Source: a virus
IMG/VR virus record: IMGVR_UViG_3300014502_000001
Span: 28,772-92,771 of that record
Direction: 5' to 3' (one strand)
Length of the DNA stretch: 64,000 bases
Shown here: one piece after another, positions 52,763-59,265 of the stretch
Layout of the letters: every line of letters starts with the position of its first letter
How positions within the stretch are numbered: the first letter of the stretch is position 1
The notes under the pieces: model-generated
The model's database searches: none
What the model was told of the DNA's origin: nothing
The model's input: only the letters and a program-made list of their open reading frames with translations
Program-made: the position numbers and the translations under genes

Positions 52763-53478
52763 ATTGAGTACAGCATTGCCTTGCCGTCCAGAGCCTTTTC
52801 GAACTCGGATTTACGACCATCAATAAATGGCTTCATGCGATCCGCTGGATAATCGATCTGTCCGCCGCTGCGCTGAATGCCACCTTCCTGGCTGCGGCGC
52901 AGCATGACGACTTCTAAACATCGCCACACCGTTCCATCCAGCATCATAACCTGAAAATCCTCGGGCACCGTGGCTAGCGTCCAGGAGCTTTTCTCCACCG
53001 ACAGATACCACACTGGCACATTCACCACGACAGGCATTGGGATAATACGCACGGTGCGCGCAATGGGATCATATTCAAAGCGCAGCCGCTGTGTACCGCG
53101 CCGCCGCCGTAAAGCATCTATCGTGGCCAAGGACGGGAACTCATAGGCATTCTCTGGATCGTCTGAGCCAGTATTCACTATTATCCCAGTCATGGCTGGA
53201 TCGTTGAATCCGTCCGATGTGGCCGAGAGCACATTGCTGGGATACACCTCAGCCACGCGCAAGGTATTATCATTCACTGGATAGACGTCAGTGTAGGCAA
53301 TGGTCGTTAAAGAGCGCAGAACCTTTTTGGTGATCTTGTCAGCGATGAGCTTTAACACCCGCCCGTTTTCAGCAATGATGTCAGCGTCTAAAATATCCAC
53401 TACATTTTCGACAGGTATTTTTCCCAGCTCCAGCCGCACTGCATCGATCAGTGCTTGCTCGGTGGTAGTATAGCTCAT
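52759..53478 (-). CDS. Head-tail adaptor-like protein
   Basis: LI..VR.ELG, I.P.P, VPEDF pattern; position. Confidence 0.6.
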   Translation of the reverse strand: MSYTTTEQALIDAVRLELGKIPVENVVDILDADIIAENGRVLKLIADKITKKVLRSLTTIAYTDVYPVNDNTLRVAEVYPSNVLSATSDGFNDPAMTGIIVNTGSDDPENAYEFPSLATIDALRRRRGTQRLRFEYDPIARTVRIIPMPVVVNVPVWYLSVEKSSWTLATVPEDFQVMMLDGTVWRCLEVVMLRRSQEGGIQRSGGQIDYPADRMKPFIDGRKSEFEKALDGKAMLYSI

Positions 53479-54236
53479 AATTGCTCTCCAAAAATCTCCA
53501 GCGAATGGCGCTTTATAGCCTCTGGGTGCTCACCCGTAAATGGAACAGCAGGAGAGCTCCCAAGCGGGTCGTTCTCATATTTTTCCCAGACCTCTTTGTA
53601 ATAAACTTCCCACGGCGTGTCGGCAGGATAGCCGTCCTTAGCGTATTCTCCACGCTTTAGATATTCCTGCACCCTAAAACGCTGACGCTCTTTGGACTGC
53701 GCCATTGAGTAGTGGTACACATATACACCAGGAATCAAAACCTTATACCTTAAGACTTTGCCCAGCTGCTCATGTCTAAATATAGGCGTCCTGCCGGCAG
53801 TGTGCCAGTACTCGTCTCCTCCGATAAAATGCGGACTGCCAATAAAATGATTCCAGCGAACACTGAAAGAGCCCACATCATCAGGAGCCGACTGGATGGC
53901 CTCAACCACCCGCCGTATGCCGTCCTCTGAATATGCCTCATCAGCGTCTTGTGACAGTACCCAGCAGTCGAACTCTTTGGGGATTCCTTTCAGATATACT
54001 TTTTCCTGTCCAAAGAAGTCGTGCGCCCCACTGGGAAGCTTCCACGTTCCCGCTTCATAAAAAGTTATCTTGCTACCGAATTTCTTTATGATGTCCAGGG
54101 AGCCGTCGGTGGAAGGACCAAAGCGTGAGCCGTCCACAATACAGAATCCATCGACATGATTGATGGTGCTTTCAATACATGATTGCAGTATAGGACCAGC
54201 ATTATAGACCATCATACCAACATACAGCTTGTTCAT
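53475..54236 (-). CDS. Glycosyltransferase family 2-like
   Basis: MMVYN, VDGS..STDGS, WVLSQDADE (DxD), VYHYS. Confidence 0.85.
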   Translation of the reverse strand: MNKLYVGMMVYNAGPILQSCIESTINHVDGFCIVDGSRFGPSTDGSLDIIKKFGSKITFYEAGTWKLPSGAHDFFGQEKVYLKGIPKEFDCWVLSQDADEAYSEDGIRRVVEAIQSAPDDVGSFSVRWNHFIGSPHFIGGDEYWHTAGRTPIFRHEQLGKVLRYKVLIPGVYVYHYSMAQSKERQRFRVQEYLKRGEYAKDGYPADTPWEVYYKEVWEKYENDPLGSSPAVPFTGEHPEAIKRHSLEIFGEQL

Positions 54237-58237: not shown

Positions 58238-59265
58238 CGGATAAACTCTTCAACACATTCCAACACGGTTTTGGCCAGAGCTTCTGTGTCCACCTTCACC
58301 AGACAATCATACCTGCCCGCGCAGGCCTCAGCTTTTTCTCTGCAAGGTTTGCAGCCGATGCGCTGTTCCAGCTGAATGGCGCGCACGCCTTCGGGCGCTA
58401 GCGGGTGTAATGATAATCTCTGCTGCCACGCCGTGGGCCCAAGCATCGCAATCACCGGAGTGGTTGTAAAGTGGGTGATCCATAGCGGCGCTGAGTCCAT
58501 AACCACAGCACATTCCGCTCCAGCTATCAGGCTGAATAACTGTGGAAGAGAGAGCTTGCTAGCGAAATGCTTGACCGGAATAGAGGAGGCGATCTTTTCT
58601 TCCGGAGGGCCAACGTGACAAACTTTTATGCCCGCAGCATTCAGCCTGACAGCTATTTTCTCCAGTGCCTGGAGCGGAAGGCACTTGCGGGTGTTGGCAC
58701 CCTGCGTTTGGAGAACAATATATTTCTCTCCCACGAGGGCTGGGATTTCTGGCAATTTTGAAATGTCCATGCTCCAGTCTATTTCAGAGGCTGGAGGCAT
58801 TTTCACGCCCGCCGCCTTTGCATAAATATGAACACGATGAAGAGCGCCGCGCTCCTCGTCGGTGTGATCCTGTTCTAACATCCAGTCGGCCACCAGTCCG
58901 ACATCACCGATGGTGGTATTTTTCTTCATGCTCTGAAAAGGAATATCCAGATATGGCATGATAGAGGCATACTGATCGCTGGCACGCAGGTAGCAATCCC
59001 AGCCCAGTTTCTTTATCTCGCGCAGCACAGGTATAGCCATCAGCGTATCACCCAGCGCCCAGGAGCGCTGAATATAAATCCGCTTTGCTTCTAGCTTCTG
59101 CGCCTCTTCTAAAAACTCGCCACTGATAGGTTCAAAACCAGTGGGCAGACCTGGACGGCCTAAAAAGTCAGCCACTCCATTGTGATCTACCCAGATCATG
59201 GTACGGCTGTTCTGAGGATAAAAACCTTGGGCGATGCGGCCCCTGTTGATCGCTAGCTTGAACAT
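58234..59265 (-). CDS. Glycosyltransferase family 9 (heptosyltransferase-like)
   Basis: ALGDTLMAIP, RK.LP, DSAPLWI, LGPT, C.PC..C..C. Confidence 0.88.
   Translation of the reverse strand: MFKLAINRGRIAQGFYPQNSRTMIWVDHNGVADFLGRPGLPTGFEPISGEFLEEAQKLEAKRIYIQRSWALGDTLMAIPVLREIKKLGWDCYLRASDQYASIMPYLDIPFQSMKKNTTIGDVGLVADWMLEQDHTDEERGALHRVHIYAKAAGVKMPPASEIDWSMDISKLPEIPALVGEKYIVLQTQGANTRKCLPLQALEKIAVRLNAAGIKVCHVGPPEEKIASSIPVKHFASKLSLPQLFSLIAGAECAVVMDSAPLWITHFTTTPVIAMLGPTAWQQRLSLHPLAPEGVRAIQLEQRIGCKPCREKAEACAGRYDCLVKVDTEALAKTVLECVEEFIR

What the first reader, a model, noticed from the sequence alone, without database searches (positions are those of the whole stretch)
53475..59265. Glycan-building cassette (five GT domains plus a methyltransferase) inserted between capsid and neck genes
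Seen: immediately after the capsid gene and its terminator come GT9, a 901-aa GT9-GT2-GT9 fusion, a class I methyltransferase, an HNH insert and a GT2, overlapping one another and the head-tail adaptor gene. Established: GT9 enzymes are known mainly as LPS-core heptosyltransferases using ADP-heptose; virion protein glycosylation by phage GTs has been shown in some mycobacteriophages; terminal methylation caps some bacterial glycans. Inference: a late-expressed assembly line that builds a defined, possibly heptose-containing and methyl-capped oligosaccharide on the virion. Alternatives are late host-surface remodelling or DNA glycosylation. The terminator would keep the enzymes sub-stoichiometric to capsid protein.
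Basis: partly seen in the sequence, partly recalled or inferred. Interest (0 to 1): 0.8.

Follow-up and report, generated by a model that had tools for sequence, protein, structure and literature searches.

The report
Capsid-linked glycan-building island in peat phage
An uncultured 93-kb peat phage, like its whole deep lineage, keeps a set of sugar-transferring enzymes directly behind its capsid gene; the key enzyme resembles bacterial protein-glycosylating enzymes, so the set most likely sugar-coats the virus particle, though no sugar has been measured.

Summary
After the gp23-like capsid gene and a strong hairpin with a T5 run come a 343-aa GT9 enzyme, a 901-aa GT9-GT2-GT9 fusion, a class I methyltransferase, an HNH homing endonuclease, a GT2 enzyme and an SU10/gp13-type adaptor. 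These are the only glycosyltransferase domains found in the complete 92.8-kb genome.

It is not a private insertion. In 27 distinct related IMG/VR phages, with capsid identity falling to about 23%, a GT9 gene sits directly after the capsid gene in all but one. The triple fusion follows it in the closer relatives.

The stretch before the adaptor is hypervariable. In relatives it carries sulfotransferases, methyltransferases, fucose-synthase-like and dehydratase-like enzymes, radical SAM enzymes and a phosphonate pathway. It holds no flippase, polymerase or lipid-priming transferase.

The stand-alone GT9 keeps the catalytic Asp residues. Like the protein O-heptosyltransferase TibC, it has an N-terminal beta domain and a four-Cys finger. 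All GT9-linked capsid proteins end in Ser.

Best reading: a late, cytoplasmic system that glycosylates virion protein, probably the capsid (about 0.55). Donor sugar, acceptor and timing are untested. This scan has noted the same theme on other DNA.

The parts
59358..60593 (-). Major capsid protein, gp23-like (411 aa). It ends ...ATVSINQS-COOH and is the proposed acceptor.
   Evidence: Pfam Gp23 E 1.5e-41 and PHROG major head protein. C-terminal Ser in 30 of 30 GT9-linked capsid proteins and 116 of 120 cluster representatives.
59290..59331 (-). GC-rich hairpin (stem 59295-59331, 14-nt loop) plus a T5 run. Probable partial terminator or mRNA-stabilising 3' structure between the capsid gene and the enzymes.
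   Evidence: Sequence. Fold -36.8 kcal/mol, z -4.3. Equivalent perfect 11-16 bp hairpins follow the capsid stop codon in 10 of 11 relatives folded. One peat RNA-library contig bridges it.
58234..59265 (-). Stand-alone GT9 glycosyltransferase (343 aa): N-terminal beta domain, GT-B catalytic domain, C-terminal four-Cys finger. Proposed priming, acceptor-directed enzyme.
   Evidence: Pfam PF01075. Invariant G72-D73, D257-S258 and C305/C308/C315/C321. Profile hit to WaaC with the GD motif aligned. AF2 pLDDT 92. TibC is the top hit by Foldseek and by VIA, Z 21.5.
57176..58237 (-). Fusion protein residues 1-354: N-terminal beta domain plus GT9 domain A, a paralogue of the stand-alone GT9.
   Evidence: hhalign A2 against A3: probability 98.4%, E 1e-14, residues 5-337 against 17-366. 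Invariant G88-D89 and C303/C312/C318/C336.
56438..57166 (-). Fusion protein residues about 358-600: GT2 (GT-A fold) domain.
   Evidence: Pfam PF00535. Invariant D391-N392-S394-D396, N439-N440-D441 and R522-Y523-D526. Foldseek hits to GT-A enzymes.
55532..56395 (-). Fusion protein residues about 615-901: GT9 domain B with its own four-Cys motif. It is absent from the roughly 625-aa short form found in some relatives.
   Evidence: Second PF01075 stretch, alignment A3, AF2 model.
54804..55535 (-). Class I SAM-dependent methyltransferase (243 aa). Probable sugar O-methyltransferase. A semi-conserved accessory gene of the island.
   Evidence: Pfam Methyltransf_11/25/12. Weak best NCBIfam hits are to the mycofactocin oligosaccharide methyltransferase and a pseudaminic-acid-associated methylase. 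Homologues in L008, L013, L014, L016, L020, L092.
54233..54802 (-). HNH homing endonuclease (about 189 aa counted from Met53). A selfish insert, not part of the pathway.
   Evidence: PHROG and Pfam HNH hits. Start reasoning. HNH genes sit in other positions of the same slot in L014 and L016.
53475..54236 (-). Stand-alone GT2 glycosyltransferase (253 aa) with a D-A-D motif. A variable accessory gene.
   Evidence: Pfam PF00535, sequence. Homologues in L004, L009, L015, L016, L091, L092.
52759..53478 (-). Head-tail adaptor / neck protein (239 aa). It marks the downstream border of the slot.
   Evidence: Atlas: SU10_adaptor by features 0.97, T4 gp13-like by structure. Homologues border the island in relatives. 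Same-slot proteins of L099 and L103 pass Pfam SU10_adaptor.

Best explanation
This is the local version of a lineage-wide 'capsid-side glycan island'. It is a set of soluble, cytoplasmic enzymes co-transcribed with the head genes that builds an oligosaccharide on a virion protein, most probably the major capsid protein.

Proposed steps, all inferred:
1. Transcription reads through the post-capsid hairpin at reduced level, so the enzymes are made in catalytic amounts.
2. The stand-alone TibC-like GT9 recognises the acceptor protein and attaches the first sugar to a Ser or Thr. Its N-terminal beta domain and Cys4 metal finger would serve recognition. Candidate sites are the invariant C-terminal ...ATV(S/T)I(N/T)xS-COOH strand and the S/T-rich loop just before it.
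3. The GT9-GT2-GT9 fusion adds up to three further sugars.
4. The stand-alone GT2 and the methyltransferase add a terminal sugar and an O-methyl group.

This phage makes no nucleotide sugars of its own and would draw on the host pool. In relatives the same core is combined with sulfotransferases, further methyltransferases, deoxyhexose synthesis, radical SAM enzymes or a phosphonate pathway. Related phages would therefore carry different surface glycans, a phage counterpart of O-antigen diversity.

Shown here: gene content, conserved catalytic residues, fold, synteny, and presence in RNA libraries. Inferred: acceptor, donor sugars, order of steps and timing.
For: - All GT domains of the genome lie in this one cassette, inside the head-to-neck gene string and with 4-nt gene overlaps.
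- Synteny: 16 of 16 relatives with capsid identity of 38% or more, and with downstream sequence available, have GT9 plus the fusion. In 15 of them GT9 lies within 860 nt of the capsid stop codon.
- An independent scan using a GT9 motif found 28 loci. Every locus with upstream sequence has a Gp23 capsid gene directly upstream except L093 (the L016 contig), where GT9 lies about 8.5 kb upstream of the capsid gene. The loci with the capsid gene directly upstream include phages at 23-28% capsid identity, where GT9 is the only enzyme between the capsid and the SU10 adaptor. In such minimal loci GT9 must itself act on the primary acceptor.
- GT9 keeps the WaaC-equivalent catalytic GD and the D-S motif.
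- Its best structural match is the protein O-heptosyltransferase TibC (Foldseek E 4.5e-11; VIA Z 21.5 over 285 residues). Only the TibC alignment reaches into the N-terminal beta domain.
- Four invariant Cys sit before the last helix, as does TibC's iron finger Cys339/342/358/370. The motif is present in 100 of 126 full-length family representatives.
- Across 16 islands there is no polytopic membrane protein, meaning no flippase, polymerase or phosphoglycosyl transferase. The 40 island ORFs scanned are tailoring and sugar-nucleotide enzymes.
- All 30 GT9-linked capsid proteins end in Ser, against a mixed set of end residues in 55 capsid proteins without GT9. Among cluster representatives 116 of 120 end in Ser and 2 in Thr. 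The preceding loop is 32% S/T against 13% overall.
- In mycobacteriophages, glycans sit at the C-termini of capsid and tail-tube subunits (PMC12619734, citing Freeman 2023).
- Contigs at 99% identity or more from four peat and wetland RNA-library studies cover parts of the capsid, GT9, fusion, methyltransferase/HNH and GT2 genes. One contig spans the hairpin.
Against: - No glycan, modified peptide or enzyme activity has been observed, and the phage is uncultured.
- GT9-bearing capsid proteins can be separated from the rest by a single branch of the tree. The capsid-GT9 adjacency may therefore be one ancestral event kept by the general rigidity of phage head-gene order, not repeated selection for linkage.
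- The same caveat applies to the C-terminal Ser.
- TibC outranks other GT9 structures by only 1-2 Z units. At sequence level the profile hits TibC at only E 0.14.
- This genome has no poly-Ser acceptor tracts.
- RNA-library contigs cannot show strand, level or timing, and may include carried-over DNA.
- The phage has a separate ThyX-type nucleotide-tailoring cluster (lead), so a glycosylatable DNA base cannot be excluded.
Confidence: 0.55

Rival explanations
1. Host-envelope remodelling. The enzymes act late in infection on host LPS core, O-antigen, capsule or an S-layer/surface glycoprotein. The purpose could be to destroy or mask the receptor, so that progeny are not lost on debris and superinfection is blocked.
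For: GT9 is best known from LPS core heptosyltransferases. The weak NCBIfam and PDB sequence hits are to WaaC, WaaF and WaaQ. Sulfotransferases, LicD-like enzymes, phosphonate and deoxyhexose genes in relatives are typical of cell-surface glycan loci.
Against: Scores against the LPS heptosyltransferase equivalogs lie far below their cut-offs: 21-62 bits against 135-185 or more. The enzyme has TibC-type extras that WaaC and WaaF lack. No flippase, polymerase, ligase or priming transferase occurs in any of 16 islands. Seroconversion genes of phages are normally morons near the lysogeny genes, not fixed for a whole lineage between the capsid and adaptor genes (general knowledge). The linkage to the capsid gene holds down to 23% capsid identity.
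Confidence: 0.2
2. DNA hypermodification. The GTs glycosylate a non-standard base, for example a hydroxymethyl-pyrimidine made with the phage's ThyX-type cluster, to evade restriction.
For: Phage GT-A and GT-B enzymes can put mono- and di-sugars, including heptose, on DNA bases (bioRxiv 10.1101/2023.12.21.572611). This genome has a ThyX-flavoprotein cluster at window 11240-16402 (earlier-scan lead). ThyX is also present in the two complete relatives.
Against: Known DNA-glycosylation genes cluster with the base-modifying enzymes. Here the cassette lies about 40 kb from the ThyX cluster, and more than 19 kb from it in the complete relative G001. The structural neighbours are GT9/TibC enzymes; no T4 beta-GT appeared among the listed matches. 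Five GT domains plus, in relatives, sulfation and phosphonate chemistry would be unprecedented on DNA. In three incomplete relatives no ThyX was found, which is inconclusive.
Confidence: 0.07
3. Glycosylation of another target that is not the capsid shell. Candidates are tail tube or fibres, ejected internal proteins, a host cytoplasmic protein, or a small-molecule/free oligosaccharide product.
For: TibC's natural substrates are beta-helical proteins, a fold common in phage fibres. In mycobacteriophages the tail tube is glycosylated as well as the capsid. Nothing here identifies the acceptor directly.
Against: The only conserved neighbour across the lineage is the capsid gene. The tail-tube protein here ends ...VITLK and has no S/T-rich tail. 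No poly-Ser tracts occur in tail or internal proteins.
Confidence: 0.13

Closest known systems
Bacterial autotransporter heptosyltransferases (BAHT: TibC, Aah; PDB 4RAP/4RB4; eLife 2014, PMC4358343)
   Same: GT9-type GT-B catalytic domain preceded by an N-terminal beta domain and carrying a four-Cys finger just before the C-terminal helix. TibC is the best structural match of the 343-aa enzyme. Both are soluble cytoplasmic enzymes, and TibC O-glycosylates Ser on a protein.
   Different: The sequence relationship is not significant (profile E 0.14). The beta domain is about 55 aa rather than 97. The Cys spacing is C-x2-C-x6-C-x5-C rather than C-x2-C-x15-C-x11-C. The beta-hairpin thumb, dodecamer, iron binding and ADP-heptose use are untested. 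The context is a phage head operon rather than an adhesin locus.
Mycobacteriophage virion glycosylation (Che8, Corndog, Myrna; Freeman et al. 2023, known here only through citing papers PMC12619734 and PMC13313380)
   Same: Phage-encoded glycosyltransferases, with methyltransferases in some phages, are associated with structural genes. Glycans sit on the C-termini of capsid and tail-tube subunits. Here the capsid C-terminus is an invariant Ser after a Thr-rich strand.
   Different: Different hosts (actinobacteria there, an unknown peat bacterium here) and a different capsid type (gp23-like). The enzymes here are GT9/TibC-like and multi-domain, and the island is much larger and hypervariable. 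Homology of the enzymes was not tested because the paper and its sequences are not held. Nothing here is experimental.
Chlorovirus PBCV-1 capsid glycosylation enzymes A064R and A111/114R (PMC7826918)
   Same: Virus-encoded multi-domain proteins carry three transferase activities in one chain. A111/114R has three GT functions. A064R has two GTs plus a methyltransferase that O-methylates the terminal sugar. They build the capsid glycan in the cytoplasm, independently of host machinery. The methyl 'cap' and the fucose-type sugar synthesis seen in relatives are analogous.
   Different: That is a eukaryotic giant virus with N-linked glycans on a double-jelly-roll capsid protein. The domains are of other GT families and the genes are not linked to the capsid gene. 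A064R did not appear among the top 50 PDB matches of the fusion.
LPS core heptosyltransferases WaaC/WaaF/WaaQ (CAZy GT9)
   Same: Same Pfam family and fold. The catalytic GD and the D(S/T)G motif align.
   Different: The phage proteins score far below the equivalog cut-offs. The LPS enzymes have no N-terminal beta domain and no Cys4 finger, and they act on lipid A-Kdo at the membrane.

Membership tests
Glycosyltransferase family 9 (Pfam PF01075 / CAZy GT9 fold) | Significant match to the family model | tested here: met
   The 343-aa protein scores 41.2 bits and the fusion 75.9 bits in two stretches, against a cut-off of 22. The six-frame search finds three domains.
Glycosyltransferase family 9 (Pfam PF01075 / CAZy GT9 fold) | GT-B fold with the N-terminal G-D catalytic base and the C-lobe D-(S/T)-G motif | tested here: met
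   AF2 pLDDT 92. VIA Z 19-21 to WaaC, WaaF, 3TOV and TibC. G72-D73 aligns with WaaC G12-D13 and D257 with the WaaC D261 region; both are invariant in 16 homologues.
BAHT (TibC/Aah protein heptosyltransferases) | Sequence-level membership | tested here: not met
   The A2 profile hits TibC at only E 0.14-0.38. phmmer with the single sequence finds no TibC.
BAHT (TibC/Aah protein heptosyltransferases) | N-terminal beta domain in front of the catalytic domain | tested here: inconclusive
   Five short strands at residues 4-46. The TibC alignment starts at model residue 24, whereas the alignments to the LPS heptosyltransferases WaaC and WaaF start at residue 61 and that to 3TOV at 48. The domain is about half the size of TibC's 97-residue barrel.
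BAHT (TibC/Aah protein heptosyltransferases) | Four-Cys iron finger inserted before the C-terminal helix | tested here: inconclusive
   Four invariant Cys (305, 308, 315, 321) in the equivalent sequence position, and in 100 of 126 family representatives. The spacing differs from TibC Cys339/342/358/370. Metal binding and superposition were not testable.
BAHT (TibC/Aah protein heptosyltransferases) | Dodecamer; ADP-heptose donor; Ser O-glycosylation of a protein | not testable with these tools
   Needs biochemistry.
LPS heptosyltransferase I/II/III equivalogs (NCBIfam TIGR02193/02195/02201) | Score over the curated equivalog cut-off | tested here: not met
   21-62 bits against cut-offs of 135-185 and above.
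Glycosyltransferase family 2 (PF00535, GT-A) | Family match plus acidic DxD-type motifs | tested here: met
   Fusion 31 bits and the 253-aa protein 26.7 bits, against a cut-off of 23.3. Invariant D391/D396, N439-N440-D441 and D526 in the fusion. Q-D-A-D-E in the 253-aa protein.
Class I SAM-dependent methyltransferase | Match to Methyltransf_11/25 models | tested here: met
   52.1 and 43.5 bits, over the cut-offs. Substrate (sugar hydroxyl) not tested.
Phage DNA sugar-hypermodification clusters (5mYOX/ThyS-linked GTs; bioRxiv 10.1101/2023.12.21.572611) | GT gene clustered with a base-modifying enzyme (C5-MT, 5mYOX, ThyS/ThyX) | tested here: not met
   The cassette's neighbours are the capsid and adaptor genes. 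The ThyX-type cluster is about 40 kb away (lead). ThyX in relative G001 lies more than 19 kb from its island.
Lipid-carrier polysaccharide loci (O-antigen/capsule type) | Priming phosphoglycosyl transferase, flippase/ABC exporter, polymerase (polytopic membrane proteins) | tested here: not met
   No ORF with more than two marginal hydrophobic 19-mers among 131 ORFs of 16 islands, and none in the window's six proteins. No such Pfam family among the 40 island ORFs scanned.
SU10-type head-tail adaptor (PF24175) for the 239-aa protein | Family match | tested here: inconclusive
   No Pfam hit at E 0.01. Atlas features 0.97 to SU10_adaptor clusters and TM 0.65 to T4 gp13. Same-slot proteins in L099 and L103 pass the cut-off.

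The most novel reading that the evidence does not exclude
A deep lineage of soil and peat siphophages with gp23-like capsids uses a metal-finger, TibC-like GT9 enzyme to O-glycosylate the invariant C-terminal Ser/Thr strand of its major capsid protein. It then diversifies that glycan through a hypervariable gene island encoding methylation, sulfation, deoxyhexoses and phosphonate. Related phages would thus display different capsid 'serotypes', the viral counterpart of O-antigen variation, and sulfated or phosphonylated virions would exist in nature.
Probability: 0.3. Interest if true: 0.8.

Novelty: new variant of a known kind. Interest (0 to 1): 0.62.

Why it matters
Virion glycosylation by phage-encoded enzymes has been shown experimentally only in a few mycobacteriophages and, among other viruses, in giant algal viruses.

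This locus is a sequence-defined system from uncultured environmental phages, built on a different enzyme family. The family is GT9 with the hallmarks of the bacterial protein heptosyltransferase TibC. A conserved core is coupled to a hypervariable tailoring island.

If the capsid is the acceptor, three things follow:
- Phage particles in peat carry diverse, possibly sulfated, methylated or phosphonylated glycans. These could affect adsorption to organic matter, stability, recognition by hosts and grazers, and binning or host prediction.
- The invariant C-terminal Ser gives a precise, testable acceptor hypothesis.
- The GT9 enzyme would be a compact protein-glycosylating tool.

The system can be tested entirely by heterologous co-expression, without culturing the phage.

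Tried and rejected
- Single-protein scans of IMG/VR with the capsid protein and with the fusion found nothing. Alignment-based scans were needed.
- tblastn of the fusion against 50,697 GenBank phage records gave no match. The capsid protein reaches only 23-28% identity to cultured phages.
- Complex prediction of capsid protein plus GT9 returned 'no answer' (score 0.01, controls not run). It counts neither for nor against binding.
- The N-terminal motif shared with the tail-region protein at 34052-34921 is not significant by hhalign (E 0.22 and 0.09), and that protein has no detectable homologue in five relatives. The motif shared by the two GT9 proteins is explained by paralogy.
- ThyX co-occurrence is inconclusive. 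ThyX is present in the two complete relatives and not found in three incomplete ones.
- Poly-Ser acceptor tracts, seen by this scan in other phages, are absent from this genome's structural proteins.
- The own genome has no SDR epimerase and no NTP_transferase, so nothing points to the donor sugar.
- Freeman et al. 2023 is not held. Its findings are quoted only through citing papers.
- Parts of the cassette not covered by RNA-library contigs are not evidence of silence, and contig depths cannot rank genes.
- The careful maximum-likelihood tree did not finish, so the quick IQ-TREE result is reported.
- A non-enzymatic structural role was rejected because catalytic motifs are invariant in all GT domains.

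
Full report
**What is there**

The window is the right-hand 64 kb of a complete 92,771-bp IMG/VR virus record with direct terminal repeats. Every gene lies on the minus strand. Reading in the direction of transcription, the genes are:

- an HNH endonuclease;
- a basic repeat protein (DUF7211);
- a T4-type prohead protease;
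- a gp23-like major capsid protein (59358-60593);
- a 92-nt spacer;
- a 343-aa GT9 protein;
- a 901-aa protein with GT9, GT2 and GT9 domains;
- a class I methyltransferase;
- an HNH endonuclease;
- a 253-aa GT2 protein;
- a 239-aa protein, followed by further head-completion, tail-tube and tape-measure genes.

The five GT domains of the cassette are the only GT9 and GT2 domains in the genome. The coding genes are joined by 4-nt overlaps. The apparent methyltransferase/HNH overlap disappears if HNH starts at Met53, position 54802.

The spacer holds an 11-12 bp GC stem followed by T5. It folds at -36.8 kcal/mol, z = -4.3.

The Atlas assigns the 239-aa protein to SU10-adaptor / T4 gp13-like neck proteins.

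**It is a lineage feature, not an insertion**

No cultured phage is close. The capsid protein reaches only 23-28% identity to GenBank phages, and the fusion has no match at all.

The large protein collection does hold a family of capsid homologues. An alignment-based scan of IMG/VR recovered 79 loci. In all 16 relatives with capsid identity of 38% or more and with downstream sequence, a GT9 homologue and the triple fusion are present. In four of them the fusion is a roughly 625-aa GT9-GT2 short form. In 15 of the 16, GT9 starts 59-856 nt after the capsid stop codon. The exception is L016, where an HNH gene sits in the slot and GT9 has moved 8.5 kb upstream.

A second, independent scan started from a GT9 motif and found 28 loci. 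Every locus with upstream sequence again has a Gp23 capsid gene immediately upstream, except L093, which is that same L016 contig. This includes phages whose capsid protein is only 23-28% identical. In those distant phages the order is capsid, GT9, SU10 adaptor, with no other enzyme in between.

On a quick maximum-likelihood tree of 83 capsid proteins, the 27 GT9-linked rows can be separated from the 47 unlinked rows by one branch with support 79. A single ancient acquisition followed by long retention is therefore not excluded. I do not claim repeated independent linkage.

**The variable part**

Between the fusion and the adaptor, relatives carry 1.5-5 kb of different genes:

- L008, L013, L020: methyltransferases, sulfotransferases, an SDR dehydratase-like enzyme, and a GDP-L-fucose-synthase-like enzyme (E 1e-69 to 1e-82, though below the equivalog cut-off).
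- L011: FkbM-, FtsJ- and class I-type methyltransferases plus a sulfotransferase.
- L019: a radical SAM-SPASM-methyltransferase, an Asn-synthase-like amidotransferase, a LicD-like protein and a sulfotransferase.
- L018: a sulfotransferase, a sulfatase/phosphodiesterase-like protein, a GT1-like protein, and PEP mutase with both halves of phosphonopyruvate decarboxylase.
- L015: GT1-like proteins and a GFO/IDH/MocA oxidoreductase.

Among 131 ORFs of 16 islands none is a polytopic membrane protein. The flippase, polymerase and priming transferase expected for a lipid-linked surface polysaccharide are therefore missing.

The window's version is a small one: the core plus a methyltransferase and a GT2. 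With no SDR epimerase or nucleotidyltransferase in the genome, it must use host nucleotide sugars.

**The enzymes look active, and the key one looks like a protein glycosyltransferase**

In 16 homologues of the 343-aa GT9, the G72-D73 pair is invariant. It aligns with the catalytic G12-D13 of WaaC. The D257-S258 pair, which aligns with the WaaC D261 region, is nearly invariant (90% or more). Four Cys (305, 308, 315, 321) are also invariant.

The AF2 model (pLDDT 92) has a small beta domain at residues 4-46 in front of a GT-B fold.

Foldseek ranks TibC first (E 4.5e-11). TibC is the iron-containing protein O-heptosyltransferase of E. coli autotransporters. VIA-align gives Z 21.5 over 285 residues starting at model residue 24. 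Alignments to WaaC and WaaF start only at residue 61, with Z 19-20. The Z margin is small. What sets TibC apart is the architecture:

- TibC has an N-terminal beta-barrel.
- It has an iron finger of four Cys inserted before its last helix.
- That finger is needed for assembly and for binding the substrate (PMC4358343).

The phage family has a shorter beta domain and a tighter Cys4 motif in the same sequence position. The motif is a family hallmark, present in 100 of 126 full-length representatives among 1.8 billion clusters searched.

The first 354 residues of the fusion are a paralogue of this whole unit, with hhalign probability 98.4%. The similarity of that motif to a tail-region protein is not significant.

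The GT2 domain keeps its acidic motifs and resembles generic GT-A enzymes.

Scores against the LPS heptosyltransferase equivalogs are far below cut-off. At sequence level TibC is not significantly hit either. I therefore file the enzyme as GT9, 'works like TibC' possible, BAHT membership not shown.

**A candidate acceptor**

All 30 capsid proteins linked to a GT9 gene end in Ser, even where the rest of the tail has diverged. Examples are ...ATVTITQS...ISITNNPQS and ...RLGAGS. The 55 unlinked capsid proteins end in many different residues.

Of 120 cluster representatives of the capsid family, 116 end in Ser and 2 in Thr. The loop before the last strand is 32% Ser/Thr against 13% overall, and it is variable.

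In mycobacteriophages the glycans sit on the C-termini of capsid and tail-tube subunits (PMC12619734 citing Freeman 2023).

This is suggestive only. The Ser could be structural, and its invariance is confounded by common descent. This genome has no poly-Ser tracts.

**Expression**

Equivalent strong hairpins follow the capsid stop codon in 10 of 11 relatives folded, several with U-rich tails. Attenuation or mRNA stabilisation at this point is thus a conserved design.

Contigs from four peat and wetland metatranscriptome studies match at 99% or more. They cover pieces of the capsid, GT9, fusion, methyltransferase/HNH and GT2 genes. One 574-nt contig runs from the capsid 3' end across the hairpin into GT9.

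Contigs show presence and bridging only. They do not show level, strand or timing, and DNA carry-over is possible.

**Rivals**

- Envelope remodelling (0.2) fits the family name and the kinds of tailoring enzymes. It does not fit the missing export genes, the TibC-type extras or the fixed position beside the capsid gene.
- DNA glycosylation (0.07) has real precedents, including heptose on cytosine, and the phage has a ThyX-type cluster (lead). But such pathways are normally clustered, and here they lie about 40 kb apart.
- Another protein or a soluble acceptor (0.13) cannot be excluded.
- The complex prediction of capsid protein with GT9 gave no answer.

**Comparison and novelty**

The closest functional analogues are the mycobacteriophage virion glycosylation genes and the multi-domain capsid-glycan enzymes of chlorovirus PBCV-1. 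In PBCV-1, A111/114R has three GT functions, and A064R has two GTs plus a terminal O-methyltransferase. The closest structural relative of the key enzyme is TibC.

I found no paper in the held library describing GT9 enzymes beside capsid genes. UniProt and BFVD carry automatic names such as 'Glycosyltransferase Aah/TibC' for uncultured phage proteins.

This scan has noted the same theme in many other genomes, including a GT9-GT4-GT9 enzyme in a roughly 95-kb phage.

I rate the finding a new variant of a known kind: virus-encoded virion glycosylation. It is well supported as a conserved system and unproven as to target.

Noticed in passing
window 61992-63116 (-) and 50407-51621 (-): Two very basic proteins (374 and 404 aa) carry repeated EYGV(Q/P/T)GMKWG motifs (Pfam DUF7211). 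One lies before the prohead protease gene and one lies among the neck genes. They may be protease-processed internal proteins. The same motif occurs in L016:5935-6282.
   Followed up: partly
window 63113-63661, 54233-54802, 51582-52253 (all -): Three homing-endonuclease genes (two HNH, one phrog_314 type) are scattered through the head-neck module. Relatives have HNH genes at other positions of the same slot: L014 between the capsid gene and GT9, and L016 after the capsid gene with GT9 displaced.
   Followed up: partly
L018:11370-13291: In one relative, the island between the capsid and adaptor genes encodes PEP mutase (260 bits) and a split phosphonopyruvate decarboxylase. This is the entry to 2-aminoethylphosphonate, which suggests phosphonate-decorated glycans made by a phage.
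   Followed up: partly
L008:16848-17567, L011:14051-14875, L013:10021-11440, L018:7692-8525, L019:19849-20589: PAPS-type sulfotransferase genes recur in the islands of five relatives, with two copies in L013. This hints at sulfated glycans.
   Followed up: partly
L006:11242-12075: A papain-family (Peptidase_C1) protein sits between the triple GT and the adaptor in one relative. This is unusual for a phage head module.
   Followed up: no
window 59358-59381 (capsid protein C-terminus) and homologues P0006-P0125: The capsid family ends in a conserved A-T-V-T-(L/I)-T-x-S-COOH strand. The last residue is Ser in 116 of 120 representatives and Thr in 2.
   Followed up: yes
window 34052-34921 (-): A 289-aa tail-region protein has an N-terminus (TNHSLIMQVYYDYLGRAHTLAPGE) that resembles the N-terminal motif of the GT9 proteins. 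hhalign finds the same register, but the match is not significant, and five relatives have no homologue.
   Followed up: yes
window 29405-30553 (-): phiEco32-like COOH-NH2 ligase type 2 (PF14395, E 8.7e-15) downstream of the tail genes.
   Followed up: no
window 42145-47283 (-): A very long tape-measure protein (1712 aa) and no detectable sheath gene. This implies a siphovirus with a very long tail.
   Followed up: no
window 53000-61000: Near-identical contigs (99% or more) occur in RNA libraries of at least four peat or wetland studies from 2024-2025. This phage or very close strains is therefore widespread in such habitats.
   Followed up: partly
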